Source: Parasynechococcus marenigrum WH 8102 (lineage in GTDB: Bacteria > Cyanobacteriota > Cyanobacteriia > PCC-6307 > Cyanobiaceae). Taken from it: a stretch of 32,000 bases of DNA. The notes beneath the pieces are model-generated. The model saw only the letters and a program-made list of their open reading frames with translations. It ran no database searches and was not told the origin of the DNA. Positions within the stretch are counted from its first letter, which is position 1. Every line of letters begins with the position of its first letter. The DNA lies in contig NC_005070.1 in NCBI RefSeq assembly GCF_000195975.1, forward strand, positions 2,340,001-2,372,000. Reading direction: 5' to 3'. Positions 3,204 through 25,067 of this stretch are shown here, one piece after another. The position numbers were made by a program, and so were the translations under genes.

Positions 3204-3217
3204 GTTTCATTTGAAAC
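3204..3217 (-). promoter_or_regulatory. perfect palindrome GTTTCA-TT-TGAAAC (GT-N10-AC, NtcA/CRP-family-like) upstream of the NblA-like gene
   Basis: The site lies 53 nt upstream of ATG 3150. On the minus strand a -10-like AATAGT follows about 25 nt downstream of the site, then the GGAGGA Shine-Dalgarno sequence. Confidence 0.3.
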
Positions 3218-3440
3218 GAAACATCCACACTGTGTGAACTCTCAGACTTCTGCAGCGATCAACCCACACTGCCAGACCAAACAGAGCAGGATCGCAACTA
3301 TAAAGTCGCCAAAGCTACCAAACCTATAGCATCTGTATCACGGTGTCTAAACGAAATCTGAAACCATCTCCAATCCGTGCCCAATCCAACACTCCACTGG
3401 CGCCGAATTCCGCAAAGTGGGATCATTCTGGGTTCCCCAC

Positions 3441-3689: not shown

Positions 3690-3710
3690 TCAAGGTAAGA
3701 GCCGTGGGGA

Positions 3711-6297: not shown

Positions 6298-6300
6298 GAA

Positions 6301-7455: not shown

Positions 7456-7480
7456 GGACGTGTGAAACGAAGCGTTCAGT

Positions 7481-7518
7481 GAAACGACAAAAGGAGGAGC
7501 CCGTCACCGGGCTCCTCC
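7481..7518 (-). terminator. intrinsic-terminator-like hairpin between urtA and urtB (probable attenuator or 3' stabiliser)
   Basis: On the minus strand: GGAGGAGCCCG GTGA CGGGCTCCTCC, a perfect 11-bp stem, followed by TTTTGTCGTTTC. It begins 30 nt after the urtA stop, and its U-tract ends 25 nt before the urtB start codon. Confidence 0.6.
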
Positions 7519-7548
7519 CTGAAGAGCACTCAGGCTGTGATCAGAGGA

Positions 7549-8847: not shown

Positions 8848-8891
8848 GAAATCCACAACACGGGACACGCGCCGTCACCGGCGGCATTGGG

Positions 8892-8934
8892 AAGGTAAAA
8901 AAGGGCCCCCCACCGCTTTGGTATCAACCGGAAC
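8892..8934 (-). promoter_or_regulatory. candidate NtcA-activated promoter of urtA
   Basis: The minus strand reads GTTCCGGTTGATAC (GT-N10-AC; GTA-N8-AAC on the plus strand, 8921..8934), then 23 nt, then TACCTT (TA-N3-T -10 box, 8897..8892). This gives a 5' UTR of roughly 40 nt before ATG 8847. Confidence 0.5.
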
Positions 8935-12372: not shown

Positions 12373-14082
12373 ATGCCCTACCGCATCTCCCGCCAGGCCT
12401 ACGCCGAGACCTACGGACCCACCACCGGCGACAGGGTTCGCCTGGCCGACACCGATCTGATCCTGGAAGTCGAGAAGGACTACACCGTCTACGGCGATGA
12501 GGTGAAGTTCGGCGGCGGCAAGGTGATTCGCGACGGCATGGGCCAATCCCAGACCCCTCGAACCGAGGGAGCCGTCGACACGGTGATCACCAATGCTCTG
12601 ATCCTCGACTGGTGGGGCATCGTCAAAGCCGATGTCGGCCTCAAGGACGGCCGGATCGTGGGCATCGGCAAAGCCGGTAACCCCGACACCCAGCAAGGGG
12701 TGACGATCGTGGTGGGTCCCGGCACAGAAGCCATCGCCGGGGAGGGCCACATCCTCACGGCCGGTGGCATCGACACCCACATCCACTTCATCTGCCCCCA
12801 GCAGATCGAAACAGCCCTAGCCAGCGGGGTCACCACCCTGATGGGCGGCGGCACTGGACCAGCCACCGGCACCAATGCCACCACCTGCACCCCTGGGGCG
12901 TTTCACATCGGCCGGATGCTCCAGGCCGCTGAAGGCCTGCCGGTGAATCTGGGCTTCTTCGGCAAAGGCAACGCCAGCACCCCGGAAGCCCTGGAGGAAC
13001 AGGTGCGCGCCGGTGCCTGCGGCCTGAAGCTGCATGAAGACTGGGGCACCACGCCGGCCACGATCGATGCCTGCCTGTCGGTGGCCGATCGGATGGATGT
13101 GCAGGTGTGCATCCACACCGACACCCTGAACGAAGCCGGCTTCGTGGAAGACACGATCGCCGCTATCAAGGGACGCACCATTCACACCTTCCACACCGAA
13201 GGTGCCGGCGGTGGTCATGCCCCGGACATCATCAAGATCTGCGGTGAGGCCAACGTGCTGCCCAGCAGCACCAACCCCACCCGGCCATATACCCGCAACA
13301 CGCTCGAGGAGCACCTCGACATGCTGATGGTGTGCCACCACCTCGACCCGAAGATCCCCGAGGACGTGGCCTTCGCCGAATCACGGATCCGGCGCGAAAC
13401 GATCGCCGCCGAAGACATCCTTCATGACCTCGGCGCCTTCTCGATCATCGCCAGCGACTCCCAGGCCATGGGCCGCGTGGGCGAGGTGATCACCCGCACC
13501 TTCCAGACCGCCCACAAGATGAAGGTGCAGCGCGGTGCATTGCCGGAAGACTCCGCACGCAACGACAACCACCGGCTGACGCGCTACATCGCCAAGGTGA
13601 CGATCAACCCGGCGTTGGCCCACGGCATCAGCAGCGAAGTGGGGTCGATCGAAACCGGCAAGCTCGCGGATCTGGTGCTGTGGAAACCGGGCTTCTTCGG
13701 CATTCGCCCGGAACTGGTGGTGAAGGGGGGTTCGATCGTGTGGGCCCAGATGGGCGATGCCAACGCCTCGATTCCCACCCCCGGCCCGGTGCACGGCAGG
13801 CCGATGTTCGGCGCCTTCGGCAAAGCCCTCGCCCCCAGTTGCCTCACCTTCGTGAGCGAAGCAGCGATGGACAACGACATCCAATCAAAACTCAGGCTTG
13901 ACCGAACCTGCATGGCGGTGAAGGAGACCCGCAGCGTGGGCAAGAGCGCCCTCAAGCTGAATGCAGCGCTACCCAAGGTGAGCGTGGACCCGCAGACCTA
14001 TGAGGTGTTCGCCGACGGTGAACTGCTCACCTGCGAGCCCGCCGAGGTGCTGCCCCTCGCCCAGCGCTATCTGTTGCTGTAA
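12373..14082 (+). CDS. ureC: urease alpha (catalytic) subunit UreC
   Basis: 569 aa with [44 protein letters not shown] and MVCHHL motifs. Confidence 0.97.
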
Positions 14083-14181: not shown

Positions 14182-14285
14182 TATTTTGCAGCAACTGCTA
14201 CAGACGTTCACCTCGCCAGCCTCGGCAAGGCGCAGTTCGACTCAGGCCATGGAACGGGGACCTGAGCTTGCTTCGAGGAACCACC

Positions 14286-14453
14286 ATGACGACTCTTCTC
14301 TACAGAGGACACGCCTACCAGCAGGTCAAAGACGCTGCTCAACAGCAGGGCGTGCAACTCACCTACCGCCGCAACGTGTATCAAGCCCGCCAGGCTGATG
14401 TGCGTCAGGCCCAGGTTCAGCTCACCTATCGGGGTGTCAGCTACCTGCGCTGA
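14286..14453 (+). CDS. DUF4278-family small protein (55 aa) with three L-x-Y-R-x-x-x-Y repeats
   Basis: ATG 14286 is preceded by GAGGAA; the track ORF begins at TTG 14268. The LTYRGVSY motif is typical of DUF4278. Confidence 0.6.
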   Translation: MTTLLYRGHAYQQVKDAAQQQGVQLTYRRNVYQARQADVRQAQVQLTYRGVSYLR

Positions 14454-14464
14454 AACCCGCTTCT

Positions 14465-15139
14465 TCAGGCGACAAGCCGGTTGAGCATGGGCAATTCCAG
14501 CAGTTCATCGCGCCACTGCTGAGCCCATCGATCCTGGCTGCGTTCGTAGAGCTCCATCAGCTCCTCGACCGCACCGGAGCGGAAGTCAACGCGAAGGTCC
14601 AGCAACGGAAATGCCGCTTCGCCGCTCACCTGCAGAGCGGCGGATGTGCAGCTTGATGCGCGTTGGTCGCCACCAGCCTGCTCTCCTGCCTGCAGGGCCG
14701 TCATCAAACGACGGCCCAGTTTCCAGTTGGGATCACTGGTGAGAAACGTCTGTTCCATCGCCTCCAGCACCACTTCGCCAGCCAGGCAATTTCCCGCAAC
14801 CGAAAGGTTGGGATGGTGCCGATGACCCGCCCATCCGCCGCACTCAACTCCAGTCCAGCAAGCAGTCCGGCCATCAAGATCGATCAGATGGAACTGGCGC
14901 CAATCCCGTTGGGGGTCATCCAGCAGAAGGCTGTTCAGCACATCCTGCGCATCCGCATGATGTTCAAGACGCTCCAGTCCGCAAATTCCCAGATAAGGAT
15001 TGGTGTGGGCTTGGGTTGCAACGGCACCTACTCCAGATCGGATGTGGGGAACAGTGGAGCCCACAGCCAGGTGACAGGTCGCCACGGCAACGCCGAAACG
15101 ACCGTTGTTGGGATCACGCGCCAGGATTGAGAAGGTCAA
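14465..15139 (-). CDS. DUF1028-family Ntn-hydrolase-fold protein
   Basis: The MTFSILARDP N-terminus (Thr2 as putative nucleophile) is characteristic of DUF1028. TTG start overlaps the upstream stop by 4 nt (TTGA). Confidence 0.7.
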   Translation of the reverse strand: MTFSILARDPNNGRFGVAVATCHLAVGSTVPHIRSGVGAVATQAHTNPYLGICGLERLEHHADAQDVLNSLLLDDPQRDWRQFHLIDLDGRTACWTGVECGGWAGHRHHPNLSVAGNCLAGEVVLEAMEQTFLTSDPNWKLGRRLMTALQAGEQAGGDQRASSCTSAALQVSGEAAFPLLDLRVDFRSGAVEELMELYERSQDRWAQQWRDELLELPMLNRLVA

Positions 15140-16452
15140 GACAGCTCGCGATCCAAACGCTGCAGAGTCCCCAGCAAGACGGCAGCCCCAGCCCAGCAGT
15201 GCTCGTCACTGGTGAATTCCTTGGATGAGTGGCTAACCCCACCACGGCTGGGGACGAAAATCATTCCCATCGGCCAGCGACGTCCGATCTCCTGCGCATC
15301 GTGACTGGCACGGCTGGGAAGGTGGCTATGCGACAACCCCAGATCCTCTGCAGCAGAAACGATCGCTGCCATCACTCCATCCGCTGCAGCTGTGGGTTCC
15401 ACCTCAAATTGAGGTTCCAACTGGATCGGGCATCCGGTTTCGGCACCGATCCGCTCCAACTGCTGCATCAACTCAGCCACCAACTGATCGAGCACAACTG
15501 AATTCACATCCCGGAGGTCAACGGTCAGCGCCACTGAGCCAGGCACCACATTGGCGGCGTTGGGCCAGACCTCGAGTCGTCCGACTGTGGCAACGGGATC
15601 ACCTGGGTGCTGTCTGGCCATCGTCTCCACCGCCAGCACGATCCGGGACGCCGCCACCAAAGCGTCTTGCCGCAGCTTCATCGGCGTGGTGCCGGCGTGG
15701 TTCGGCTGACCATCCACCTGGATGCTGAAACGGCGTTGTCCCACAACGCCCTCCACCACACCGATGGCGTCACCGCGTTGCTCGAGCACGCCTCCCTGTT
15801 CCACATGGAGCTCGAGAAAAGCAGCACAGGCGTCGTCCGCCCGACGTGCTGAGACCAGCGATGGCCAGTGACCACCGATACGAGCGAGATTGTCCTCGAT
15901 CGGTTCCCGATTGCTGGTGGCATAGGCCTTGGGGTCACAGGAAGCCGTACCGGCCATGCCCTTGCACCCGACCATCGTCGATTCCTCATCGGCGAAGGCG
16001 ATCAACTCGAGATCGTGCTGAAGACGAATGCTGTTGTCCTGCAGGGAGCGACAAACTTCAAGACCTGCCAAAACCCCCAACACACCGTCAAAACGACCAC
16101 CGGTGGGAACGGTGTCGAGGTGGGAACCGGTCATCAGTGCTGGGCGATCCGGATCCAACCCCTGAAGCCGACCGATCAGGTTGCCCGCCGTATCGATCCG
16201 AACCTGAAGGCCAGCCTCGTTCATCCATCGGGCCAGCAAGGAACGTCCCGCAACGTCCTCAGTCGAGAAACCCCGTCGACAGACGCTGCCATCGGGCTGC
16301 AGCCCAATGGCAGCCATTTCAGCCAAGGAGTGCATCAGACGCTCACGGTTGGGTCGAATGCCCACCTGTGCTTTCGACCGAGCAGTGACCTGGCGAGTGG
16401 TCAGGAGGGACGGCAATGCAGTGGCCTTCAGATCAAAAGATCGAATCACCAT
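15136..16452 (-). CDS. M20-family Zn amidohydrolase of the allantoate amidohydrolase / N-carbamoyl-L-amino-acid hydrolase / beta-ureidopropionase group
   Basis: GSHLDTVPTGGRFDGVLGV, FADEES, ELHVEQG, HAGTTPM and PSRGGVSHS motifs; 438 aa. Confidence 0.85.
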   Translation of the reverse strand: MVIRSFDLKATALPSLLTTRQVTARSKAQVGIRPNRERLMHSLAEMAAIGLQPDGSVCRRGFSTEDVAGRSLLARWMNEAGLQVRIDTAGNLIGRLQGLDPDRPALMTGSHLDTVPTGGRFDGVLGVLAGLEVCRSLQDNSIRLQHDLELIAFADEESTMVGCKGMAGTASCDPKAYATSNREPIEDNLARIGGHWPSLVSARRADDACAAFLELHVEQGGVLEQRGDAIGVVEGVVGQRRFSIQVDGQPNHAGTTPMKLRQDALVAASRIVLAVETMARQHPGDPVATVGRLEVWPNAANVVPGSVALTVDLRDVNSVVLDQLVAELMQQLERIGAETGCPIQLEPQFEVEPTAAADGVMAAIVSAAEDLGLSHSHLPSRASHDAQEIGRRWPMGMIFVPSRGGVSHSSKEFTSDEHCWAGAAVLLGTLQRLDRELS

Positions 16453-16511
16453 CGCCGCAGCGACCCAAACGCCCTGTCGTCAATGCGACGTTTTAACCCT
16501 CACCAAAGAAT

Positions 16512-18536
16512 TCAAACGGGCATCAGCACCCGCCACCCGAGGCGATCGGCCTGCTCACGAGCCTGGGCTGGCACATCGGCCGCTACAAACATCCGATGCA
16601 GCATCTGGACACCCAGGAGGTGGTTGATGACGGCATCCATCTGAACCCGCTCGGCGTCGGTGGTGGCAGGGTCGTCGTGGCGCGCAAACAAGGCACGCAC
16701 GCCCTCTTTGCTCAACAACCCAGCCGCATCAATCGCTTCATCACTCAGGTAGTCATCAGCCAACTGCTTCATTTGCGCCCACTTCTCGGGCTCGGTGTGG
16801 GCCGGGGGCGCCATGAAGGCAAATTTTTCGCGCTTGTAAAGCACCTCCGGCAGCAGACCCGCCATGGCCTCCCGCAGCACATATTTCTCAGTTTTTCCCT
16901 TGATCCGCAGCTCCGGAGGCACTTGTACCGCCGCAGCCGCCAGATGGTGATCCAGGAAAGCCGGCCGTGCCTCCATGGAGTTGGCCATGTCGACGCGATC
17001 ACCTCCCCAGGTGAGGATCTGGCCTTCCAACATTGTTTTGATCCAGACGTACTGAGCCTTGTCGAGGGCATGGCGACCATCGAGTTGCTGGGGATTCAAC
17101 TGCTCAGCAATGGCTTTACCTGGCGAGTACTCCACCAACGCCTGACGGTGCTCGTCAGCCAGCAGATCCGGCACCAGCGGCGCGCAGGCCAGCCAGGGCT
17201 GCAGACAGCTGGGGGTGAAGCCCACCACGGCATCAAGATCGGGATCATCCACCTGATCAGCCGCCAGCATTGCTCCCTGCACCAGGGAATTGTTGGTCTG
17301 CAGCAGAGACTCCCAATCCTGGCGATCGCTCTGCGGCAGGTCCTCCAGACCATGGAGGAACATGTCACGCCGGAACGCGGGATAGCCACCGAACAGCTCG
17401 TCTGACCCTTCCCCAGTCATCACGACTTTGTAGTCGACACTATTGACATGGCGACTCATTAAGTATTTGGCCACAGCCAAGGTGTTGTAGATCGTGCGCT
17501 CGGTATGCCAGAGCGTTTGTTCCATGTGGCCGTACAACTCACGACCCGACAGACGCATGACGTCCTGCTCGGCACCGGTGGCCTCCGCCATCTCCGCAGC
17601 AATGGGTGTTTCGTCGTAGCGCGCATCATCGAATCCGATCGTGAACGCCTTGACGGGACCCTGACTCACCGCCGAAGCAAGACCGAGGATCGAACAACTG
17701 TCGATTCCGCCTGAGAGATAACAACCCACGGGCACGTCGGCCACCATCCGCATCTCCACCGCTTCCAGCAGAGCAGCACGAACATTGGCGATGTGATCAG
17801 CCTCCGTGAGGGTGCTGTCCCGCTGATCCAAACGTGGAAAATCGACATCCCAGTAGGTCGACTCCGACACCTCCAGCCGGTCACTCCTGCGCTGCACCTT
17901 CAGCACATGACCAGGCTGAACTTGGTGCACCCCGGCGAAGGCGGTCGTTCCCGGGACCATGGTCTGCATCAACTGATGAAAGAGACCCTCCGACGTGAAG
18001 CGTCGCTCCACGGCCTGGTGAGCAAACAGCACCTTCAACTCGGAGCCGAACACCAACCCCTCCGGCGTCATCGTCCAGTACTGGGGCTTGATGCCGAAGC
18101 GATCCCTCACCAGATAGAGACAGTCATCCGCCGCATCAAACAGAGCAAAGGCGAATTCCCCCCGCAGCAGAGGCAACGTGGACTCGAGACCCTGCCGTTG
18201 ATACAGGCGCAACAAAATCTCGGAATCACTCTTCGAGGAGAAACGCACTCCCTGGGCGGTGAGATCAGCACGGATGCGCTGAAAGTCGTAGAACTCGCCG
18301 TTGTGCGCCATCAGCACCTGCCGGTCGTTGCTGAGAAACGGCTGACGTGCCCGGGATTCGTTCAGATCAATAATCGACAACCGGGCATGACAGAAGCCGA
18401 CACCGGCTGCGTCGAGGCATTCCACACCGAAACCATCCGGTCCGCGATGGGACTGGATGGCCGCCATGTTGACCAACAGCTGGCGATCCAACGTCTGATG
18501 ACGATCCGCCAGAAACACACCTCCGATTCCGCACAT
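16512..18536 (-). CDS. asparagine synthetase B-type glutamine-dependent amidotransferase (long, 674 aa)
   Basis: N-terminal MCGIGGVF (Cys2 Ntn glutaminase) and PP-loop SGGIDSC. It starts 9 nt after the upstream transcarbamylase gene. Confidence 0.85.
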   Translation of the reverse strand: MCGIGGVFLADRHQTLDRQLLVNMAAIQSHRGPDGFGVECLDAAGVGFCHARLSIIDLNESRARQPFLSNDRQVLMAHNGEFYDFQRIRADLTAQGVRFSSKSDSEILLRLYQRQGLESTLPLLRGEFAFALFDAADDCLYLVRDRFGIKPQYWTMTPEGLVFGSELKVLFAHQAVERRFTSEGLFHQLMQTMVPGTTAFAGVHQVQPGHVLKVQRRSDRLEVSESTYWDVDFPRLDQRDSTLTEADHIANVRAALLEAVEMRMVADVPVGCYLSGGIDSCSILGLASAVSQGPVKAFTIGFDDARYDETPIAAEMAEATGAEQDVMRLSGRELYGHMEQTLWHTERTIYNTLAVAKYLMSRHVNSVDYKVVMTGEGSDELFGGYPAFRRDMFLHGLEDLPQSDRQDWESLLQTNNSLVQGAMLAADQVDDPDLDAVVGFTPSCLQPWLACAPLVPDLLADEHRQALVEYSPGKAIAEQLNPQQLDGRHALDKAQYVWIKTMLEGQILTWGGDRVDMANSMEARPAFLDHHLAAAAVQVPPELRIKGKTEKYVLREAMAGLLPEVLYKREKFAFMAPPAHTEPEKWAQMKQLADDYLSDEAIDAAGLLSKEGVRALFARHDDPATTDAERVQMDAVINHLLGVQMLHRMFVAADVPAQAREQADRLGWRVLMPV

Positions 18537-18545
18537 CAGTTCGCC

Positions 18546-19733
18546 TCAGATCACATCCATCACGCGCTCGGCACGATTCACCATGCAGGTGAGCAGTGCC
18601 ATGCGCACAAACACCGCCCCACGCGCCTGGCTGAAATACCAGTTGTGCGGCGTGTCATCGAGACAGGTGCTCAGCTCGGGACCCCGGGCCAGGGGATGCA
18701 ACACGATCGCCTCCGGCTTGAACGGCAGATCCCGGGTGAGACGAAATCCACCGCCGTGCACCTCGTAGCTGTCGCCAACCCAGGCAATCGCATTGATGTA
18801 GACGACATCCAGATCGGGAATCTCAGCAGCCAGATCTGAACTGCAGCGGATGGACATCCCGCTTGCTTCCAGTTCCTCCAGCTGGCCTGGATCAAACAAA
18901 GGCGCTTCCGACTCCATCTCGGGCGCATGGATCACCACCACCTCCTCCAGGATCTGGGGGAATTTGCTGAGGATCCGCAGCAGCGAACGCACGGTGCGCA
19001 TCCGCGACGGCAAACCGATCACCCCGATGCGGATCCGATCCTTCGGGGAGACCTCTTTCGAAGCAAGGCTTGGACGCCATTTGAACATCGTGTAGAGATC
19101 CGCCATCGCCTGTGTCGGATGCTCATCAATGCCATTACCGGCATTGATGATCGGAATCCGCAGGGTGGAACTCATGGCGTACACGGCCTCCGGATTGCTG
19201 TCGCGTAGCACCACGCAGTCGCCGTAGTTGTTGAACATGTGCGCCACGTCCTCGAGCGACTCCCCCTTGGCGATGCCGGTGGTGCTGCGATCGGTGATGT
19301 TGATCGAATCACCGCCGAGGCGATGCCAGGCGCTGTCGAAGGAAAGGCGTGTGCGCGTGCTGGGCTCGTAGAACGCGTTGATCAGGATCTTGCCGGTGAG
19401 CGGCGTGTTGTGCCGGCAGTAACGGTCTGGGTTGCTCTCGAATTTCGCCGCCAGTCGAAACAACTGGAGCAGGGTTTCAGCACGAAATGCCTGAATCGAC
19501 ACCACGTGTTGATCGACAAGATCCACCAACGGCTCACCGTCTTCAGCAATTGCGGCCAAAAGCTCCTGCGGCTGATTGTGGCCGAACACATCAGGACCCA
19601 TCGGCTGGAAGCGGAGCGGCGCCGAAGCCTCCTCGATCACGGCTGTGTGGGGTTGTGCCATAAGCATTTGCATCAACACCCGATTTGCCAGATCGCGTGA
19701 TGTGCCATGAATCACATCATCCTTCGCTAACAA
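18546..19733 (-). CDS. ATCase-like transcarbamylase of unknown acceptor specificity (start codon uncertain)
   Basis: STRTR and HPTQ carbamoyl-phosphate motifs, RTVRSL (R167 equivalent), HPLAR, and C-terminal TPHNWYFSQARGAVFVRMALL close to E. coli PyrB [21 protein letters not shown]. The track ORF begins at TTG 19733. In-frame ATGs lie at 19673 and 19601. Confidence 0.8.
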   Translation of the reverse strand: MLAKDDVIHGTSRDLANRVLMQMLMAQPHTAVIEEASAPLRFQPMGPDVFGHNQPQELLAAIAEDGEPLVDLVDQHVVSIQAFRAETLLQLFRLAAKFESNPDRYCRHNTPLTGKILINAFYEPSTRTRLSFDSAWHRLGGDSINITDRSTTGIAKGESLEDVAHMFNNYGDCVVLRDSNPEAVYAMSSTLRIPIINAGNGIDEHPTQAMADLYTMFKWRPSLASKEVSPKDRIRIGVIGLPSRMRTVRSLLRILSKFPQILEEVVVIHAPEMESEAPLFDPGQLEELEASGMSIRCSSDLAAEIPDLDVVYINAIAWVGDSYEVHGGGFRLTRDLPFKPEAIVLHPLARGPELSTCLDDTPHNWYFSQARGAVFVRMALLTCMVNRAERVMDVI

Positions 19734-19768
19734 CGAACCAGCACCCCTGACCAGCTTAAAAGAAGTTC

Positions 19769-19805
19769 TTTATACAAATAACTGGCAAATAGTTCGAATG
19801 AATAC
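19769..19805 (-). promoter_or_regulatory. candidate promoter of the transcarbamylase operon (NtcA-like site plus strong -10)
   Basis: The minus strand reads GTATTCATTCGAAC (GTA-N8-AAC, 19805..19792), then 17 nt, then TATAAA (19774..19769). The spacing is shorter than the canonical ~22 nt. Confidence 0.35.
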
Positions 19806-19837: not shown

Positions 19838-19984
19838 TCACCAGACGCGTCCATTGCGCCACTCAAACCACCAAATCACCAGCAATGCGAGCACAGAACA
19901 GACGAGCGCCACCTGGCTTCCCACCAGGACCAGACCGAACCAGTGTTGATCCACCAGAACCGTGAGCAGCAACGCATTGGCCAT
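19838..19984 (-). CDS. unlisted 48-aa single-TM mini-ORF immediately downstream of the symporter
   Basis: My translation: MANALLLTVLVDQHWFGLVLVGSQVALVCSVLALLVIWWFEWRNGRVW. The ATG lies 5 nt after the symporter stop. It is below the ORF-track length cut-off. Confidence 0.35.
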   Translation of the reverse strand: MANALLLTVLVDQHWFGLVLVGSQVALVCSVLALLVIWWFEWRNGRVW

Positions 19985-19989
19985 GGCGT

Positions 19990-21420
19990 TCACACCCCCT
20001 CTTGCAGACGATTGAAATCAAACCCTTCCGGCTGCCAGCGGCTGCCCACCACCATCACGACAGCCGAAACGGCTGCGGAGAACACTGCCGCGCAATAGGG
20101 AGCAATCAGAACGTAAGCCGATAGTCCGACGGCACTGCCGGCTGCCATGGCGACGATCGCTGCCCAACGATTGGCAGAAGACCAGTAGAGACCGCAAGCC
20201 ACAGGCCAGACCGTGGAGGCCACCAACGCACCGGTGAAGAACAGCACCGACGCCAACGAATCCAGTCGCGGCCAGGACAGGGCCAGGGTGAGAACAGACA
20301 GGCCAACCACCATCTGCCGGGCCGCCTGCTTGAGCTGTGCATCGCTCGCCTGAGGGCGCAGCAGACGGAAATAGACGTCTTCCGCCAGCAGATCCGCCGT
20401 GGACGCCAACAGCGAATCCAGGGTGGAGGTGAGTGACGCGAAGACCACCACAAACACCAGTGCCGCCCCACCAGCCCCCAGAAGATCGGCCGCCATTACA
20501 GGGAACACCATGTTCACCTGCTCCAGCGGCAGGTCCCTGGCCAGCGCCACCAGACCGATCGATCCCGTCACCAGGGGGATACTCATCCAGGCCAATCCCC
20601 CCAAGACAAACGAGGTCATCACCACACTGCGCCGGCTGGCGAACACCCGCGACCACCAGATGTTGTTGTGAAAGACCTCACCCATCGAGAACAGGGCGGA
20701 ATTCCAGGCGATCAGCAGACCAGCCGGAAGCAAGAGATCCAGCCGGTCAGGGTGCGTACTGATCAAGCGAGCATGCACCTCCGGCATCGGGAACTGACGG
20801 AACGCCAGCACCGCCACCACCGCCAGCAACACCATGATCAGCAGCGACTGGATGAAATCGGTTCCGATCACTGCCCGCATGCCACCGAACAGGGTGTAAA
20901 CGGTGGAGACGCCGATCACCACCACCATGCCTACGTGGTAATCGAAGCCGGAGAGCGCCTGAAGCAACAGACCGGCCCCCATGGCCTGGGTCATCAGAAA
21001 ACCGAGGGTGTACACAGCGGTGATCACCATGAACACCCACCACGCCAGGCGCCCGTAACGCAACCGGATGAAATCGCCACTGGTGCGGCCATGCGGCATC
21101 AGCTGCTTGATCCGCACGGCCAGCGGCGCGAACAGGATCAAGCCCAGACCGGCCAGGGCATAACTGAACATGCCCCAAAGACCAGTCCTGTAGCCGAATT
21201 CCGGAGCCAGCAGTGTGGTGTTTCCGGTCACCCAGGAGGCCATCAGCGTGGCCGTGCTCAACGCCAACCCGATGTTGCGTCCGGCCAGCATGTAGTCGTC
21301 GGCATCTCCTTTACCGCGGCGGCCCCAGACGATCCCCAAGGCGATCCACAGCACGGAAAACAACACAACCAGGGCCCAGGCGATGCCAGGCGCCAGAAAA
21401 GGTGCGGCGTCAGCGGGCAT
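19990..21420 (-). CDS. sodium:solute symporter (SSS) family transporter
   Basis: About 476-aa polytopic protein with an SSS-like N-terminal region (YMLAGRNIGLALSTATLMASWVTGNT...). I prefer ATG 21420; the track ORF starts at GTG 21438. Confidence 0.85.
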   Translation of the reverse strand: MPADAAPFLAPGIAWALVVLFSVLWIALGIVWGRRGKGDADDYMLAGRNIGLALSTATLMASWVTGNTTLLAPEFGYRTGLWGMFSYALAGLGLILFAPLAVRIKQLMPHGRTSGDFIRLRYGRLAWWVFMVITAVYTLGFLMTQAMGAGLLLQALSGFDYHVGMVVVIGVSTVYTLFGGMRAVIGTDFIQSLLIMVLLAVVAVLAFRQFPMPEVHARLISTHPDRLDLLLPAGLLIAWNSALFSMGEVFHNNIWWSRVFASRRSVVMTSFVLGGLAWMSIPLVTGSIGLVALARDLPLEQVNMVFPVMAADLLGAGGAALVFVVVFASLTSTLDSLLASTADLLAEDVYFRLLRPQASDAQLKQAARQMVVGLSVLTLALSWPRLDSLASVLFFTGALVASTVWPVACGLYWSSANRWAAIVAMAAGSAVGLSAYVLIAPYCAAVFSAAVSAVVMVVGSRWQPEGFDFNRLQEGV

Positions 21421-21535
21421 CGACCGACCCCCGATCACGCCAGTGCAGATGGCCCTGAATGATCATCGCCACCGTTGCCAGGGTCACCGCAGCACCGAGG
21501 GCAAAGACCAGTCCAGCCCAGAGATTGTCATCCAA
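21410..21535 (-). CDS. unlisted 41-aa single-TM mini-ORF overlapping the symporter start
   Basis: TTG 21535 is preceded by AAGAGGAGA with a 7-nt spacer. The product is (M)DDNLWAGLVFALGAAVTLATVAMIIQGHLHWRDRGSVDAR. Its TGA (21412..21410) overlaps codons 3-4 of the symporter, which suggests translational coupling. Confidence 0.35.
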   Translation of the reverse strand: MDDNLWAGLVFALGAAVTLATVAMIIQGHLHWRDRGSVDAR

Positions 21536-21669
21536 AGCGAATCTCCTCTTCAGCAGATCTCAGACAAGCAAATCGCGGTGTTCTTGAGCTTGCATTCACG
21601 AATAACAAGTCGCTGGCGCTACCCAAATCACAGGCTGTCAGCGCACTGATGCCTTCAATCTCGAAATGT

Positions 21670-21683
21670 GTAGCAATCACAAC
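21670..21683. promoter_or_regulatory. GTA-N8-AAC motif in the divergent gap between the symporter unit and the ATP-grasp operon
   Basis: GTAGCAATCACAAC shares GTAGCAAT with the site upstream of nrtP. I found no well-spaced -10 box on either strand. Confidence 0.2.
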
Positions 21684-21733
21684 CCGCGGGGCCCTGATCG
21701 AGTTTTTGGATGCGCCTATTCATCGTTCAGGCA

Positions 21734-23206
21734 ATGTTCACCGAGTACCGACCAACCCATGGGTACGACGAATATTTTTGCCGTGAACAGTCCGCTCCCC
21801 GCGCTGATCTGGAGCCGCTGCTGTCCTCCCTTGGAGCCATGGGGCTGGCGGAACTGAATCGCAGTCATGCATCAGCGAGCAATCTGTTGCGACGTCTTGG
21901 CGCCACCTTCCGACTCAACGGATCAGGTCTGCATGGCGGAGAGCGGATCCTTCCCTTCGATCCACTGCCAAGACTCATTCACCGTCAGGAATGGTCCGTT
22001 CTGGAGCGCGGATTGGTGCAACGCCTGGAGGCCATTGATCAGTTTCTGGCGGACGTTTATGGACCCCAACGGATCCTCAATGATGGCGTGATCCCCCGTG
22101 AGGATGTGGAGAGCTCCCAGGGCTGGCGGCCCCAGATGCAGGACATCGCCGTGCCGCTCAACCGCTGGTGCCACATCTCAGGTCTGGATCTGATCCGCGA
22201 TGGCGACGGCACCTGGAGGGTTCTGGAGGACAACCTGCGCTGCCCCTCTGGCGTGGCTTATTTCCTTGAGAACCGTCGGGTGATGAAGCGGTTGTTCCCC
22301 AGCCTGTTCCAAGGGCGAACCGTGCAGCCGATCGACGATTACCCCTCCCATCTCTTGCGCACGTTGCAGGATCTGGCTCCTTGGAGTGATGCCCCACGGG
22401 TGGTGCTGCTCACCCCCGGCGTGTTCAACAGCGCCTACTTCGAGCACAGCTATCTGGCCCAGCAGATGGGCATTGCCCTGGTGGAAGGCCGCGATCTGAT
22501 CTGTGAAGACGGACGCGTCTGGATGCGCAGCACGGCCGGTCGGGAACCTGTGGATGTGATCTACCGGCGCATCGATGACGATTTCCTCGATCCGAACGTG
22601 TTCCGACGCGATTCGATGCTCGGTGTCCCCGGCCTCATCGATGCCATGCGCTCCGGTCGGGTGGCCATCGCCAACGCCCCTGGGAGCGGTGTCGCTGACG
22701 ACAAGCTGATCTATGCCTACGTGCCGGCCATGATCCGTTACTACCTCAACGAAGAACCGATCATCGACAACGTCCCCACCTATCTCTGCTCAAGGGACGA
22801 CGACCGCCGTTATGTGCTCGAACATCTCAACGAACTGGTAGTGAAATCAGTCGCCGAGGCAGGCGGCTACGGAATGTTGATCGGGCCCCATGCCAGTTCT
22901 GAGGAGATTGAGAGCTTCGCGGTGAAGATCAAGGCTCACCCGCGCAATTTCATCGCCCAGCCCACCCTGCAGTTATCCACAGTTCCATCCCTGAGCGAAG
23001 GGGAGCTGTACCCCTGCCATGTGGATCTGCGCCCCTACGTGCTCCGGGGTAAAAGCGACTGGGTCAGCCCCGGCGGCTTGACTCGTGTAGCCCTGAAACG
23101 CGGTTCCCTTGTGGTGAACTCCTCCCAGGGGGGCGGCTGCAAGGACACCTGGGTGGTCAGCGACAGTGCCGTAACGGCTGGCAATCAGGAGCTCGTGCCG
23201 TGCTGA
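21734..23206 (+). CDS. circularly permuted type-2 ATP-grasp protein (DUF404/DUF407 family)
   Basis: MFTEYRPTHGYDEYF...ERILPFDPLPRLIHRQEWSVLERGLVQRLEAIDQFLADVYG...VLEDNLRCPSGVAYFLENRRVMKRLFP matches the family pattern as I recall it. An alternative ATG lies at 21710. Confidence 0.85.
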   Translation: MFTEYRPTHGYDEYFCREQSAPRADLEPLLSSLGAMGLAELNRSHASASNLLRRLGATFRLNGSGLHGGERILPFDPLPRLIHRQEWSVLERGLVQRLEAIDQFLADVYGPQRILNDGVIPREDVESSQGWRPQMQDIAVPLNRWCHISGLDLIRDGDGTWRVLEDNLRCPSGVAYFLENRRVMKRLFPSLFQGRTVQPIDDYPSHLLRTLQDLAPWSDAPRVVLLTPGVFNSAYFEHSYLAQQMGIALVEGRDLICEDGRVWMRSTAGREPVDVIYRRIDDDFLDPNVFRRDSMLGVPGLIDAMRSGRVAIANAPGSGVADDKLIYAYVPAMIRYYLNEEPIIDNVPTYLCSRDDDRRYVLEHLNELVVKSVAEAGGYGMLIGPHASSEEIESFAVKIKAHPRNFIAQPTLQLSTVPSLSEGELYPCHVDLRPYVLRGKSDWVSPGGLTRVALKRGSLVVNSSQGGGCKDTWVVSDSAVTAGNQELVPC

Positions 23207-24183
23207 GCCGTGTGGCCGATTCGCTGTACTGGATCAACCGGTATGTCGAGCGGGCCGAAAACATCTCCCGGTTTCTGGAAGTAAGCGAAGCCATGGCCCT
23301 GGATTGCCCCCCCGGCAGCGCTGAGCCCTGGCTTCCCCTGGTGGATGCCAATGGGGACCGCAAGCGGTTTGACGAGGCCTATCCCCAATGCACACCACGG
23401 GACGTCGTCAGCTTTCTGCTGCTGGATCGCGACAACCCCAACAGCATCGTGAGTTGCATCGCCAACGCCCGTGAGAACGCTCGCCAAATCCGCGATGTGA
23501 TCACCACGGAAATGTGGGAGCAGCTCAATGACCTCTATTGGAACGTTCAAGACGGTGAGGCGCTCTGGCAGGAGCCGGATCAAGAACAGCTGCGCAGCAT
23601 CCGACGCGGATGTCAGCTCTTCTACGGCATCACGGACGTGACCCTCAGTCGTGATCAAGCCTGGCTGTTCAGCCAGCTGGGACGGCTGATCGAACGGGCA
23701 GACAAAACCTCCCGCATCCTCGATGTGAAGTACTTCCTTCTGTTGCCAACGCCAACGGAGGTGGGCGGCGTTCTCGATGAATTGCAGTGGATCTCACTGC
23801 TTCGAACAGCTGGGGCTTATCAGATGTATCGCCAGAGCGTGCAGCAGGCGATCACACCAGCATCAGTTGCACGATTCCTGCTCCTGGATCCGATCTTTCC
23901 CCGTTCGGTCCGCTTCTGCCTGCAACAGATCAACGAGACGCTGCAACGCATTCAGAGGAAACCCCACACCGGCCCACCGGATGACCTGGAATGCCTGGGC
24001 GGTCAGTTGCTCGCCCAATGGAGCTACGTCCGCATCGACGCTCTGATCGAACGCGGACTGCATGAGGCCATCGATCAACTGCAAAGCGATCTGAACCGAC
24101 TGCATGGCCTCATCCACCGTTGCTACTTCACCACCACCGACCTGGGCTCCATCCCCACCGAGCCGTCATGCGCGCTGAGCTGA
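23200..24183 (+). CDS. alpha-E domain protein (DUF403)
   Basis: MLSRVADSLYWINRYVERAENISRFLEV is the hallmark alpha-E N-terminus. The GTG start overlaps the ATP-grasp stop (GTGCTGA). Confidence 0.85.
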   Translation: MLSRVADSLYWINRYVERAENISRFLEVSEAMALDCPPGSAEPWLPLVDANGDRKRFDEAYPQCTPRDVVSFLLLDRDNPNSIVSCIANARENARQIRDVITTEMWEQLNDLYWNVQDGEALWQEPDQEQLRSIRRGCQLFYGITDVTLSRDQAWLFSQLGRLIERADKTSRILDVKYFLLLPTPTEVGGVLDELQWISLLRTAGAYQMYRQSVQQAITPASVARFLLLDPIFPRSVRFCLQQINETLQRIQRKPHTGPPDDLECLGGQLLAQWSYVRIDALIERGLHEAIDQLQSDLNRLHGLIHRCYFTTTDLGSIPTEPSCALS

Positions 24184-25067
24184 ACCATCGCCTCACATAT
24201 CGCTACGAGGCTCCCGTGCAGCTCGGAGAACACCGCCTCTGTCTGCGGCCCCGGGCCCAGGGCCATCAACGGCTGATCCACCACACACTGCAGATCACAC
24301 CGGAACCCTTCCACAGCCATGAGCTGTTGGCCGCCAGTGGCGATGCGATCGAGCGCGTGCGCTTCCGAGGCAGCACCGATTTGCTGCAGCTCGAAGCCAG
24401 GAGCTTGGTGGAAACCCGGCAGGCCGCACCGCTGCTCACATGTTTCAACGGACTTGAACCCTCGCTTCCCTATCCGCGCGGTCTGCTGAACCACGACCTA
24501 CTGGGGGCTCTGGAAGGGTGGTTGCCCAACGGTCAACACGACCCCTCAGCTGTGGAACTGGCGCAGGACGCTCTGATGGGAAGCAATCAGCAGGTGCTGC
24601 CTTTTCTCCAGCAACTGATGGAGATGATCCAGGACCGGGTCAAGTACACCCAGCGCCATGTGGGCCCAGCCTGGCCAGCGGGCAGGACCTTGCGGGAGCG
24701 TGTGGGCTCATGCCGTGATCTGGCGATGCTGATGATGGAGTGCTGCCGCAGCGTGGGGCTGCCGGCTCGGTTTGTGAGTGGTTACCACCTGGCCGAACCA
24801 GCACCTGAGACCTACGACCTTCACGCCTGGACCGAGATTTATCTGCCGGGTGCCGGCTGGCGCGGTTTTGATCCAAGTGCAGGTGGTGAAATTACCTCGC
24901 GCTACATCGTGCTTGTCAGTTCCTCCAAACCGGATCTCAGTGCAGCGGTTCAGGGAAGCTTTACAGGACCCCCAGCAACGACAAGCCACCTGAGCTGGAC
25001 CATTGACGCGGATGTCGAACCCAGACCGGTCGCTTCGTCCAGCCAAACCATGGTTCAGGCCGCCTGA
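24168..25067 (+). CDS. transglutaminase-like cysteine peptidase family protein (N-terminal Bact_transglu_N-type region plus core)
   Basis: ATG 24168 (MRAELNHRLTYRYEAPVQLGEHRLCLRPR) overlaps the alpha-E gene by 16 nt. A Cys-His-Asp triad is visible: GSCRDLA, LHAWTEIYLPGAGW, GFDPS. Confidence 0.85.
   Translation: MRAELNHRLTYRYEAPVQLGEHRLCLRPRAQGHQRLIHHTLQITPEPFHSHELLAASGDAIERVRFRGSTDLLQLEARSLVETRQAAPLLTCFNGLEPSLPYPRGLLNHDLLGALEGWLPNGQHDPSAVELAQDALMGSNQQVLPFLQQLMEMIQDRVKYTQRHVGPAWPAGRTLRERVGSCRDLAMLMMECCRSVGLPARFVSGYHLAEPAPETYDLHAWTEIYLPGAGWRGFDPSAGGEITSRYIVLVSSSKPDLSAAVQGSFTGPPATTSHLSWTIDADVEPRPVASSSQTMVQAA

What the first reader, a model, noticed from the sequence alone, without database searches (positions are those of the whole stretch)
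14465..19805. Operon of divergent transcarbamylase + AsnB-type amidotransferase + M20 carbamoyl-amidohydrolase + DUF1028 Ntn-hydrolase that matches no pathway I recognise
Four tightly packed minus-strand genes (gaps of 9 and 59 nt, then a 4-nt overlap) lie between urease and nitrate-assimilation genes. Together they encode a carbamoyl-transfer enzyme, an ATP/glutamine-dependent amide-forming enzyme, a hydrolase for N-carbamoyl (ureido) groups and an N-terminal-nucleophile amidohydrolase of unknown function. This gives one enzyme pair suited to building an N-carbamoylated, amidated small molecule and one pair suited to removing the same groups. An SSS transporter sits just upstream on the same strand, and an NtcA-like motif with a TATAAA box precedes the block. 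Two readings fit. One is uptake and catabolism of an ureido/amide nitrogen source. The other is synthesis and turnover of a nitrogen-rich solute. Purely as speculation, N-alpha-carbamoyl-L-glutamine-1-amide, a compatible solute reported from Ectothiorhodospira marismortui, has exactly a carbamoyl and an extra amide.
Basis: partly seen in the sequence, partly recalled or inferred. Interest (0 to 1): 0.8.

Follow-up and report, generated by a model that had tools for sequence, protein, structure and literature searches.

The report
Candidate carbamoyl-glutamine-amide solute gene cluster
A conserved gene cluster in marine picocyanobacteria and several hundred other, mostly salt-water, bacteria probably makes, re-imports and breaks down a small nitrogen-rich ureido-amide solute, and it is also present in the one bacterium known to accumulate such a solute, whose biosynthetic genes have not been reported in the literature I could search.

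Summary
The four minus-strand genes are real, at the stated coordinates and spacings. They are part of a larger unit. That unit also holds a DUR3-like sodium:solute-family transporter and two tiny membrane ORFs.

The carbamoyltransferase-like and AsnB-like genes are adjacent in 76 of 77 related loci. Relatives of the carbamoyltransferase were found in 495 species genomes. A carbamoylase-type M20 hydrolase accompanies the pair in both phyla. A second amidohydrolase does too, but it is DUF1028 in cyanobacteria and an unrelated isochorismatase-family enzyme in Chromatiales.

The carbamoyltransferase keeps the carbamoyl-phosphate and alpha-carboxylate ligands of ATCase. It lacks Arg229 and Gln231, which hold aspartate's side chain, so it is not PyrB.

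The type-strain genome of Ectothiorhodospira marismortui carries M20, isochorismatase, carbamoyltransferase and AsnB-like genes in a row. [quoted passage not shown] In a relative the same row is followed by an MscS channel.

Best reading (confidence about 0.45): synthesis from glutamine, carbamoyl phosphate and ATP, hydrolytic turnover, and uptake of CGA or a close analogue. No enzyme was assayed and no metabolite measured. I found no paper describing this pathway.

The parts
14465..15139 (-). DUF1028 N-terminal-nucleophile hydrolase. It has a TTG start with Thr at position 2. Proposed role: amidase that removes an amide from the solute.
   Evidence: Pfam PF06267, 219.6 bits. The only solved relative is 2imh, of unknown function. 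The AF2 model has pLDDT 86.6 and TM 0.84 to 2imh, then matches proteasome-beta-type folds. It overlaps the M20 gene by 4 nt. DUF1028/M20-carbamoylase pairs recur in unrelated Proteobacteria.
15136..16452 (-). M20 metallo-amidohydrolase of the hydantoinase/carbamoylase family. Proposed role: N-decarbamoylase.
   Evidence: TIGR01879 386.8 bits (cutoff 204). NF006771 407 bits (cutoff 399). ErtE, the N-carbamyl-L-glutamate amidohydrolase model, gives the best E-value but is below its cutoff (427.1 against 520). The M20s linked to the module in Proteobacteria and Prochlorococcus fall in the same NF006771 subfamily.
16512..18536 (-). AsnB-type glutamine-dependent amidotransferase. Proposed role: ATP-dependent amidation of the carboxylate of the N-carbamoyl amino acid.
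   Evidence: GATase_6/7 plus Asn_synthase. Cys2, the NGE motif and the LSGGIDS PP-loop are visible in the alignments. TIGR01536 scores 425.5 bits, but the AsnB equivalog NF006949 scores 263.6 against a cutoff of 499. It lies directly downstream of the carbamoyltransferase in 76 of 77 loci.
18546..19673 (-). Divergent ATCase-fold carbamoyltransferase (the ORF extends to a TTG at 19733). It has a conserved N-terminal extension of about 50 aa. Proposed acceptor: L-glutamine or a similar neutral amino acid.
   Evidence: OTCace_N plus OTCace. It is below both ATCase equivalog cutoffs (195 against 236.95; 187 against 263). STRTR, Lys84, Arg105, HPTQ and Arg167 equivalents are kept. Arg229 becomes Ala, Gln231 becomes Ala, Lys232 becomes Trp. 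These positions are invariant or nearly so across the family.
19677..19699 (-). Conserved hairpin (CACGCGAT-CTGGCAA-ATCGGGTG) just upstream of the likely ATG of the carbamoyltransferase gene. It is either a leader RNA element or N-terminal coding sequence.
   Evidence: RNAalifold on 10 marine Synechococcus loci gives 9 pairs, 3 with compensatory changes and a weak covariation term of -0.64 kcal/mol. Sequence.
19769..19805 (-). Promoter-like region of the enzyme genes. It holds the NtcA-like box GTAttcattcgAAC (19792-19805), which overlaps a TTCGAA -35-like hexamer, and TATAAA (19769-19774).
   Evidence: Sequence. A GT-N10-AC motif sits at the aligned position in most marine Synechococcus loci, and L025 has a perfect GTAN8TAC. 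The window has no exact GTAN8TAC.
19838..19984 (-). 48-codon single-TM ORF ending in Trp. Putative small subunit of the transporter.
   Evidence: Translation. It is called as a gene on L005. Proteobacterial loci have 39-40-aa counterparts, also ending in W, between the SSF and carbamoyltransferase genes.
19990..21420 (-). DUR3-like transporter of the sodium:solute symporter family. Proposed role: uptake or re-uptake of the ureido solute. Plain urea is not excluded.
   Evidence: PF00474. The nearest solved structures are DUR3 urea symporters, E 1e-33 against 1e-10 for other SSS members. Urea-site residues are partly kept (W93, T98, Y117, W338). Others are replaced by smaller residues (W95T, Q124G, Y461L), and the pattern is identical in seven module transporters from both phyla (residues from PMC11840088).
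21410..21535 (-). 41-codon TM ORF overlapping the transporter start. It may correspond to the C-terminal TM helix of the ~145-aa protein that precedes the transporter in Proteobacteria.
   Evidence: Translation. Its nucleotide sequence is conserved across Synechococcus loci. The ~145-aa signal-peptide-plus-TM proteins occur in 14 of 15 proteobacterial loci.
21609..21683 (-). Two position-conserved NtcA-like boxes: GTTgtgattgcTAC at 21670-21683 and GTAgcgccagcGAC at 21609-21622. They lie in the intergenic region shared with the divergent CP_ATPgrasp operon.
   Evidence: Sequence. Conservation in the alignment of marine Synechococcus loci.

Best explanation
The window carries a self-contained module for a small neutral ureido-amide solute. 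[quoted passage not shown]

Synthesis (inferred). The ATCase-fold enzyme transfers the carbamoyl group of carbamoyl phosphate to the alpha-amino group of L-glutamine. The AsnB-type enzyme then adenylates the free alpha-carboxylate and amidates it with ammonia from glutamine. The same chemistry is used by AsnO in N-acetylglutaminylglutamine amide synthesis.

Turnover (inferred). An amidase re-exposes the carboxylate. This amidase is DUF1028 here and an isochorismatase-family hydrolase in Chromatiales. The carboxylate is what carbamoylase-type M20 enzymes need. The M20 enzyme then removes the carbamoyl group as CO2 and NH3.

Transport (inferred). The DUR3-like transporter, with its two small membrane partners, takes up or recaptures the solute. 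Its pocket still resembles a urea site but is enlarged.

Shown here: gene content, strict co-conservation across two phyla, the active-site substitutions, and presence of the module in the CGA-producing species.

Inferred: every substrate, the order of steps, and the physiological role (osmolyte, nitrogen reserve, or both).
For: 1. Co-conservation. Relatives of the carbamoyltransferase occur in 495 species genomes. The AsnB-like gene is directly downstream in 76 of 77 loci with room. Of 57 loci with at least 4.5 kb on both sides, 51 have the M20, 42 the transporter, 39 DUF1028 and 4 the isochorismatase-family hydrolase. In 15 proteobacterial loci the transporter, carbamoyltransferase and AsnB-like genes are present 15 of 15 times and the M20 10 of 15 times.

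2. Non-homologous replacement of the fourth enzyme. It is DUF1028 in cyanobacteria. In E. marismortui, Ectothiorhodosinus, Thioalkalivibrio and Nitrosococcus it is an isochorismatase-family amidohydrolase, closest to biuret, triuret and N-carbamoylsarcosine hydrolases. This implies that an amide-hydrolysis step belongs to the system.

3. The carbamoyltransferase keeps the carbamoyl-phosphate and alpha-carboxylate ligands. It has Ala at the Arg229 and Gln231 positions, which bind aspartate's beta-carboxylate. That fits a neutral, longer side chain.

4. The linked M20s all fall in one subfamily, and their next-best model is N-carbamyl-L-glutamate amidohydrolase ErtE.

5. The genome of E. marismortui DSM 4180T is FOUO (PMC8877833), and this species is the source of CGA (PMC1224877). 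Contig FOUO01000006 carries MarR, M20, isochorismatase, carbamoyltransferase and AsnB-like genes in a row, next to a sucrose synthase. In Ectothiorhodosinus mongolicus the same row is followed 10 nt later by an MscS channel. A review reports that this species lacks betaine and ectoine synthesis genes (PMC7824335).

6. DUF1028/M20-carbamoylase pairs recur next to Dpp-type importers in other Proteobacteria. This marks them as a catabolic couple.

7. The transporter's DUR3-like pocket is conserved across both phyla and is enlarged at three positions.
Against: - No enzyme was assayed and no metabolite measured. All substrates are inferred.
- The synthetic and degradative genes are tightly packed on one strand. 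Unregulated co-expression would be a futile cycle.
- The nitrogen-assimilation neighbourhood and NtcA-like boxes sit oddly with making a four-nitrogen solute. So does presence in high-light Prochlorococcus from nitrogen-poor water, and a report that an annotation-based Synechococcus 'DUR3' is more expressed in low-nitrogen ocean (PMC13505874).
- CGA has been reported from one species, yet the module is in every Ectothiorhodospira checked and in hundreds of other taxa. Presence in the producer is therefore necessary but not specific evidence.
- Thiorhodospira sibirica has the carbamoyltransferase without an adjacent AsnB-like gene.
- Asparagine, or glutamate with double amidation, would fit the sequence data about as well as glutamine.
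Confidence: 0.45

Rival explanations
1. Nitrogen scavenging. The DUR3-like transporter imports urea or an external ureido/amide compound under nitrogen stress. DUF1028 and the M20 enzyme release its nitrogen. The carbamoyltransferase runs phosphorolytically to salvage carbamoyl phosphate.
For: The transporter is closest to DUR3 urea symporters. The cluster sits beside urease and urt genes. NtcA-like boxes are conserved upstream. An annotation-based Synechococcus 'DUR3' is more abundant and more expressed in low-nitrogen ocean (PMC13505874). DUF1028/M20 pairs elsewhere sit beside importers.
Against: It gives no role to the ATP- and glutamine-consuming AsnB-like enzyme, which is the most tightly linked partner (76 of 77 loci). 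Prochlorococcus, E. marismortui and Ectothiorhodosinus keep the enzymes without the transporter in the cluster. Two residues whose alanine mutants abolish urea transport by DUR3 are replaced (W95T, Y461L, PMC11840088). An M20 decarbamoylase would make phosphorolysis redundant.
Confidence: 0.2
2. A linear biosynthetic route in which the carbamoyl group is a transient protecting group. The steps are carbamoylation, amidation, then M20 decarbamoylation. The product is a free amino-acid amide or a derivative of it.
For: The triad of carbamoyltransferase, AsnB-like enzyme and M20 is conserved in both phyla. In Chromatiales and cyanobacteria all the genes are co-directional.
Against: The recurrent fourth enzyme is an amidase and would undo the amidation. 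Carbamoylase-type M20 enzymes normally need a free alpha-carboxylate (family knowledge). The route would spend carbamoyl phosphate to no obvious end. In several Proteobacteria the M20 gene is on the opposite strand or absent.
Confidence: 0.1
3. Two-step guanidinylation. The carbamoyltransferase makes a ureido group. The PP-loop domain of the AsnB-like enzyme adenylates the ureido oxygen and replaces it with ammonia, giving a guanidino compound. This parallels argininosuccinate synthetase chemistry.
For: PP-loop enzymes do activate ureido and lactam carbonyls (argininosuccinate synthetase, GMP synthetase; general knowledge). The carbamoyltransferase/AsnB pairing is strict.
Against: I know of no Asn_synthase-family (PF00733) enzyme that does this. 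The hypothesis leaves the decarbamoylase and the amidase unexplained. No arginase- or amidinotransferase-type gene was seen beside the module in the loci examined.
Confidence: 0.05
4. Housekeeping genes: the genome's aspartate carbamoyltransferase (PyrB) and asparagine synthetase, clustered by chance with two hydrolases.
For: Public annotations call the proteins 'aspartate carbamoyltransferase'. The AsnB-like protein passes the broad TIGR01536 cutoff.
Against: The Arg229 and Gln231 equivalents are absent. Both ATCase equivalog cutoffs are missed, and so is the AsnB equivalog cutoff. Strict pairing across two phyla, together with a transporter and hydrolases, is not expected of housekeeping genes. 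I could not scan for a separate pyrB in the same genome.
Confidence: 0.02

Closest known systems
N-acetylglutaminylglutamine amide (NAGGN) system, asnO-ngg
   Same: An AsnB-type amidotransferase caps the alpha-carboxylate of an N-blocked glutamine derivative, giving a neutral osmolyte. It is a compact operon, often with a linked hydrolase (general knowledge).
   Different: There is no Ngg (GNAT plus ATP-grasp ligase). The N-blocking group would be carbamoyl, from an ATCase-fold enzyme, rather than acetyl. The AsnO equivalog TIGR03104 scores 294 against a cutoff of 570.1.
Aspartate carbamoyltransferase catalytic chain (PyrB)
   Same: Same fold and the same carbamoyl-phosphate site: STRTR, Arg105 and HPTQ. 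Lys84 and Arg167 equivalents are also kept.
   Different: Arg229 becomes Ala, Gln231 becomes Ala, Lys232 becomes Trp, and HPLPR becomes HPLAR. There is an N-terminal extension of about 50 aa. Scores fall below the equivalog cutoffs.
Hydantoinase/carbamoylase M20 amidases (AllC, N-carbamoyl-L-amino-acid amidohydrolases, ErtE)
   Same: A family member by HMM (TIGR01879, NF006771). The expected chemistry is hydrolysis of an N-carbamoyl group next to a carboxylate.
   Different: It is below the ErtE and AllC equivalog cutoffs. It is linked to a carbamoyltransferase and an amidotransferase rather than to a hydantoinase or to purine-catabolic genes.
DUR3 urea-proton symporter
   Same: It gives the best structural-sequence match. 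W93, T98, Y117, W338, P342 and P474 equivalents are kept.
   Different: W95T, Q124G and Y461L enlarge the pocket. The proton-coupling residues D312 and E402 are replaced. The protein is 476 aa, lacks the eukaryotic C-terminal domain, and has small TM partner ORFs.
Ureide catabolism (AllC M20 amidohydrolase, oxamate carbamoyltransferase, Ntn-type oxamate amidase HpxW)
   Same: It combines an M20 ureidohydrolase, an ATC/OTC-fold enzyme and an Ntn amidase (general knowledge).
   Different: No ureide pathway uses a glutamine-dependent amidotransferase. No allantoinase, ureidoglycine or ureidoglycolate enzymes are in the cluster.

Membership tests
Aspartate carbamoyltransferase (PyrB) | Carbamoyl-phosphate site: STRTR, Arg105, HPxQ | tested here: met
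   FYEPSTRTRLSF, VLRD and EHPTQ align to ATCase structures.
Aspartate carbamoyltransferase (PyrB) | Aspartate beta-carboxylate ligands Arg229 and Gln231 | tested here: not met
   YINAIAW aligns to YVTRIQK. Both positions are Ala. They are conserved as such across the family.
Aspartate carbamoyltransferase (PyrB) | Score at or above the curated equivalog cutoff | tested here: not met
   TIGR00670 195 against 236.95. NF002032 187 against 263.
Aspartate carbamoyltransferase (PyrB) | Sole ATCase of the genome, or complements pyrB | not testable with these tools
Asparagine synthetase B | N-terminal Cys nucleophile, glutaminase motifs and PP-loop SGGxDS | tested here: met
   MCGIGG, HNGEFY, SDSE and LSGGIDS are seen in the alignments.
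Asparagine synthetase B | AsnB equivalog score; aspartate specificity | tested here: inconclusive
   NF006949 scores 263.6 against 499, but the broad TIGR01536 scores 425.5 against 267.1. About 125 residues lie between the GEGSDE and EAR-PFLD motifs, against about 30 in E. coli AsnB. Substrate residues were not resolved.
Hydantoinase/carbamoylase M20 amidase | Family HMM above cutoff | tested here: met
   TIGR01879 386.8 against 204. NF006771 407 against 399.
N-carbamyl-L-glutamate amidohydrolase ErtE / allantoate amidohydrolase AllC | Equivalog cutoff | tested here: not met
   ErtE 427.1 against 520. AllC 258.7 against 597.75.
DUF1028 Ntn hydrolase | Pfam match, N-terminal Thr, Ntn fold | tested here: met
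   PF06267 219.6 bits. MTFSIL N-terminus. The model has TM 0.84 to 2imh.
NAGGN system (asnO-ngg) | AsnO equivalog plus Ngg acetyltransferase/ligase | tested here: not met
   TIGR03104 294 against 570.1. No GNAT or Ngg-type gene is in the cluster.
DUR3 urea symporter | Urea-site residues W95, Y117, Y315, W338 and Y461, and proton sites D312 and E402 | tested here: not met
   Y117 and W338 are kept and Y315 becomes W. W95 becomes T, Y461 becomes L, D312 becomes N and E402 becomes L (residue roles from PMC11840088).
NtcA-activated promoter | GTAN8TAC about 22 nt upstream of a TAN3T -10 box | tested here: inconclusive
   The window has no exact site. GTA-N8-AAC lies 17 nt from TATAAA. GT-N10-AC is position-conserved across strains.
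CGA biosynthesis (no gene family defined in the literature searched) | Present in the CGA-producing organism | tested here: met
   Contig FOUO01000006.1 of E. marismortui DSM 4180T carries the module (PMC8877833, PMC1224877).
CGA biosynthesis (no gene family defined in the literature searched) | The enzymes make CGA from glutamine, carbamoyl phosphate and ATP | not testable with these tools
   Needs enzyme assays or metabolite analysis.

The most novel reading that the evidence does not exclude
Marine picocyanobacteria, including some Prochlorococcus, and hundreds of marine and soda-lake bacteria make CGA, or a near analogue, as a soluble four-nitrogen store and osmolyte. In picocyanobacteria its synthesis, remobilisation and recapture would be under nitrogen (NtcA) control. 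On this reading the gene now annotated as the Synechococcus 'DUR3 urea transporter' carries this ureido solute. That would make the solute an unrecognised currency of marine dissolved organic nitrogen, one that other bacteria harvest with DUF1028/M20/Dpp loci.
Probability: 0.15. Interest if true: 0.85.

Novelty: new variant of a known kind. Interest (0 to 1): 0.68.

Why it matters
CGA has been an orphan compatible solute since 1991, with no genes assigned in any paper I could find. This module offers a two-enzyme route that can be tested directly. It would also add a new substrate class to the ATCase fold.

The module is present in ecologically dominant picocyanobacteria. It would therefore add an unrecognised nitrogen-rich metabolite to models of marine nitrogen budgets.

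It also bears on recent ocean-scale work. The enlarged pocket and strict linkage to these enzymes call into question the annotation-based reading of the Synechococcus DUR3-like gene as a plain urea transporter. It would further give the first functional context for DUF1028.

Tried and rejected
- Housekeeping PyrB plus AsnB. Rejected on active-site residues, HMM cutoffs and strict co-conservation.
- Ureide or purine catabolism (AllC, oxamate carbamoyltransferase, Ntn oxamate amidase). Considered, but it gives no role to the amidotransferase, and the other pathway genes are absent.
- Glutathione-amide synthase for the AsnB-like enzyme in Chromatiales. Considered after PMC8877833. Rejected because the gene is tied to the carbamoyltransferase and occurs in cyanobacteria and Idiomarina.
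- NAGGN membership. Rejected.
- Ureido-to-guanidino chemistry, and urea-centred schemes such as biuret formation from urea plus carbamoyl phosphate. Judged unlikely. The acceptor-carboxylate ligands Arg167 and Lys84 are kept, and the AsnB family has no precedent for this.
- Exact NtcA box search. None found in the window.
- Simple sigma-70 promoter scan. Nothing found.
- Literature searches for the pathway, for DUF1028 function and for expression data. No description of this cluster was found.
- Using Thiorhodospira sibirica as a supporting case. This failed, because its carbamoyltransferase has no AsnB-like neighbour.
- The Rfam hit to 5_ureB_sRNA lies inside conserved urease coding sequence and is not treated as an sRNA.

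Full report
OBSERVATION. The spacings are a 4-nt overlap, a 59-nt gap and a 9-nt gap. Pfam and NCBIfam confirm the families:
- DUF1028.
- An M20 amidase of the hydantoinase/carbamoylase family (TIGR01879 386.8 bits, cutoff 204).
- A glutamine-dependent Asn_synthase-family amidotransferase.
- An OTCace_N/OTCace carbamoyltransferase.

urtABCDE, ureEFG and ureDABC lie on one side. On the other lie a CP_ATPgrasp/Alpha-E/transglutaminase trio, then moaA, mobA, an MFS transporter and a molybdopterin oxidoreductase. A protein identical to the window's AsnB-like enzyme is encoded, in the same gene order, on a 965-kb metagenome scaffold. The closest genome is Synechococcus sp. WH 8017.

THE UNIT IS LARGER THAN FOUR GENES. 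Upstream on the same strand lie a 476-aa SSF transporter (19990-21420) and two small ORFs. One is a 48-codon single-TM ORF ending in Trp (19838-19984). The other is a 41-codon TM ORF overlapping the transporter start (21410-21535). The carbamoyltransferase most likely starts at the ATG at 19673, giving 375 aa, as in the gene call on the scaffold and as the homologues' lengths suggest.

CO-CONSERVATION. I scanned one genome per species with the family-specific C-terminal half of the carbamoyltransferase. The scan found relatives in 495 species, and I examined the best 80 loci. With loci fetched separately, the counts are as follows:
- The AsnB-like gene lies directly downstream of the carbamoyltransferase in 76 of 77 loci that have room.
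- Of 57 loci with at least 4.5 kb on both sides, 51 have the M20, 42 the transporter, 39 DUF1028, 4 an isochorismatase-family hydrolase and 9 an Asparaginase_II gene.

Gene orders by lineage:
- Marine Synechococcus: SSF, small ORF, carbamoyltransferase, AsnB, M20, DUF1028.
- The Cyanobium group: Asparaginase_II, tRNA, SSF, carbamoyltransferase, AsnB, inverted DUF1028, M20, with carB nearby.
- High-light Prochlorococcus, including MIT 9314: the four enzymes without the transporter.
- Fifteen proteobacterial loci (Thiothrix, Idiomarina and relatives, Kangiella, Pseudoalteromonas rubra, Emcibacter, Thioalkalivibrio, Porticoccaceae): a ~145-aa signal-plus-TM protein, SSF, a ~40-aa TM peptide ending in Trp, carbamoyltransferase, AsnB. 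The three large genes are present 15 of 15 times, the M20 10 of 15 in varying position and strand, and a MarR regulator 7 of 15.

All the linked M20s belong to the same NCBIfam subfamily, NF006771.

THE ENZYMES.

Carbamoyltransferase. Aligned to solved ATCases, it keeps STRTR, the Lys84 equivalent, Arg105, HPTQ and Arg167. These are the carbamoyl-phosphate and alpha-carboxylate ligands. It has Ala at the positions of Arg229 and Gln231, which hold aspartate's beta-carboxylate, and Trp at Lys232. These substitutions, and an N-terminal extension of about 50 residues, are conserved at about 65% overall identity from cyanobacteria to Proteobacteria. It scores below both ATCase equivalog cutoffs. 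It is an ATCase-fold enzyme for an alpha-amino acid with a different, probably neutral and longer, side chain.

AsnB-like enzyme. It has Cys2, the glutaminase motifs and the SGGIDS PP-loop, so it should use glutamine and ATP. It misses the AsnB and AsnO equivalog cutoffs. It carries about 125 residues where E. coli AsnB has about 30.

M20 enzyme. Its best E-value is to ErtE, N-carbamyl-L-glutamate amidohydrolase, though below cutoff.

DUF1028. It begins Met-Thr. The model is confident (pLDDT 86.6) and matches only the uncharacterised 2imh, then proteasome-beta-type Ntn folds. In unrelated Proteobacteria the 2imh subfamily sits beside a Dpp-type ABC importer. In two of three loci it is followed directly by a carbamoylase-type M20. 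DUF1028 plus M20 therefore looks like a recurrent catabolic couple.

THE CGA LINK. CGA was isolated from Ectothiorhodospira marismortui (Galinski and Oren 1991, cited in PMC1224877). The type-strain genome is FOUO (PMC8877833), and NCBI files it under E. mobilis. A family member, SFM47505.1, lies on FOUO01000006.1. Its context reads MarR, M20, isochorismatase-family hydrolase, carbamoyltransferase, AsnB-like, all on one strand. A sucrose synthase and a PfkB kinase flank the row.

Related arrangements:
- In Ectothiorhodosinus mongolicus the same row is followed 10 nt later by an MscS mechanosensitive channel, again beside a sucrose synthase. A review says this species lacks betaine and ectoine synthesis genes, and names CGA as a candidate alternative (PMC7824335).
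- Nitrosococcus oceani has a seven-gene row including the transporter.
- Thioalkalivibrio has the isochorismatase gene between the M20 and the transporter.

The isochorismatase-family protein is closest to biuret, triuret and N-carbamoylsarcosine amidohydrolases and to RutB. It is thus an amide or ureido C-N hydrolase that occupies the slot DUF1028 fills in cyanobacteria.

The caveats are real. The module is in every Ectothiorhodospira checked, so its presence in the producer is necessary but not specific. Thiorhodospira sibirica has the carbamoyltransferase without an adjacent AsnB-like gene.

THE TRANSPORTER. Its nearest solved relatives are DUR3 urea-proton symporters, at E 1e-33 against 1e-10 for any other SSS member. 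I mapped the published AtDUR3 urea-site residues (PMC11840088) onto the alignment:
- Kept: W93, T98, Y117, W338, P342, P474.
- Conservative change: Y315 becomes W.
- Replaced by smaller residues: W95 becomes T, Q124 becomes G, Y461 becomes L.
- Proton-coupling residues lost: D312 and E402.

The same pattern holds in seven module transporters from both phyla. W95A and Y461A abolish urea transport in yeast DUR3. The pocket thus looks urea-like but enlarged, which fits a substituted urea better than urea itself. This is an inference.

A 2026 study reports an annotation-based 'DUR3' of marine Synechococcus that is more abundant and more expressed in low-nitrogen ocean (PMC13505874). It is probably this gene family, but I could not verify that.

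REGULATION. The window has no exact GTAN8TAC. A GT-N10-AC motif is position-conserved in most marine Synechococcus loci, and one locus has a perfect box. The box overlaps a TTCGAA -35-like hexamer, so it could mean repression or activation. Two more conserved NtcA-like boxes lie upstream of the transporter, in the region shared with the divergent ATP-grasp operon.

MODEL. The synthesis, turnover and transport steps are as set out under Best explanation. In short: glutamine is carbamoylated and then amidated at the alpha-carboxylate, two amidohydrolases reverse those steps, and the DUR3-like transporter takes up or recaptures the solute.

Only gene content, conservation, active-site residues and distribution are shown. 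Every substrate is inferred.

Packing synthesis and breakdown genes together needs post-transcriptional or ionic control. From memory, the glucosylglycerol hydrolase gene of Synechocystis lies with ggpS, which is a precedent.

In picocyanobacteria the nitrogen-related context suggests a further role as a soluble nitrogen reserve, or as a recaptured nitrogen source.

RIVALS. Their weights are given in the Rival explanations section.
- Pure scavenging explains the transporter and the hydrolases but not the AsnB-like enzyme.
- A transient-protecting-group route conflicts with the amidase.
- Ureido-to-guanidino chemistry has no precedent in this family.
- The housekeeping reading fails on residues and on linkage.

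NOVELTY. Ten literature searches found no description of this cluster, of CGA biosynthetic genes or of DUF1028 function. The parts belong to known families. The closest system is asnO-ngg for NAGGN. The combination, and the proposed glutamine carbamoyltransferase activity, would be new.

Noticed in passing
window 14202-14266 (+) and 14286-14453 (+); L013 15198-15259 (-); L055 8723-8784 (+): A Glutamine-II riboswitch (RF01704, 64.5 bits) lies upstream of a DUF4278 peptide ORF, convergent on the DUF1028 gene. The same riboswitch lies beside the module in another Synechococcus. In Prochlorococcus MIT 9314 it sits about 640 nt upstream of the carbamoyltransferase on the same strand. It is absent from five other loci checked. 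Glutamine would be used twice by the proposed pathway, so the adjacency may not be chance.
   Followed up: partly
window 12528-12814 (-); also L008, L013, L025: Rfam 5_ureB_sRNA (RF02514) matches at 150-170 bits inside the urease alpha-subunit coding sequence. This most likely reflects conserved urease coding sequence captured by the model, not an sRNA.
   Followed up: no
window 19677-19699 (-): A conserved hairpin lies just upstream of the probable ATG of the carbamoyltransferase gene. It has 9 pairs, 3 with compensatory changes in 10 Synechococcus loci, and a weak covariation term. It could be a leader element or N-terminal coding sequence.
   Followed up: partly
window 21710-25067 (+): A divergent three-gene operon (circularly permuted ATP-grasp, Alpha-E, transglutaminase-like) shares the NtcA-like intergenic region with the transporter. 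It is syntenic in most marine Synechococcus loci. Its function was not examined.
   Followed up: no
L092, L093, L094 (about 680-8900 in each): In Roseobacter-type, Pelagibius and Chromatiales genomes a DUF1028 gene sits divergently beside a GntR regulator and a Dpp/Opp-type ABC importer. In two of the three it is followed directly by a carbamoylase-type M20. This looks like a separate, uncharacterised catabolic locus for a peptide-like ureido or amide compound.
   Followed up: partly
L035-L042, L045, L048, L053 (about 800-7300): In the Cyanobium-group loci carB (carbamoyl-phosphate synthase large chain) and an Asparaginase_II gene lie just upstream of the transporter. A GMC oxidoreductase follows the M20. 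carB is also near the module in Aliikangiella (L083).
   Followed up: partly
L090 9885-11080: Thiorhodospira sibirica keeps the 40-aa peptide ORF and the carbamoyltransferase. The next gene is a lipid A acyltransferase-like gene instead of the AsnB-like gene. No transporter or M20 is nearby. This may be a decayed or rearranged module.
   Followed up: no
window 19990-21420 (-): The gene that KEGG-style annotation would call 'DUR3 urea transporter' in marine Synechococcus lacks two residues essential for urea transport in yeast DUR3, and it is tied to this enzyme module. Ocean-scale inferences that treat it as a urea transporter (PMC13505874) may need checking.
   Followed up: partly
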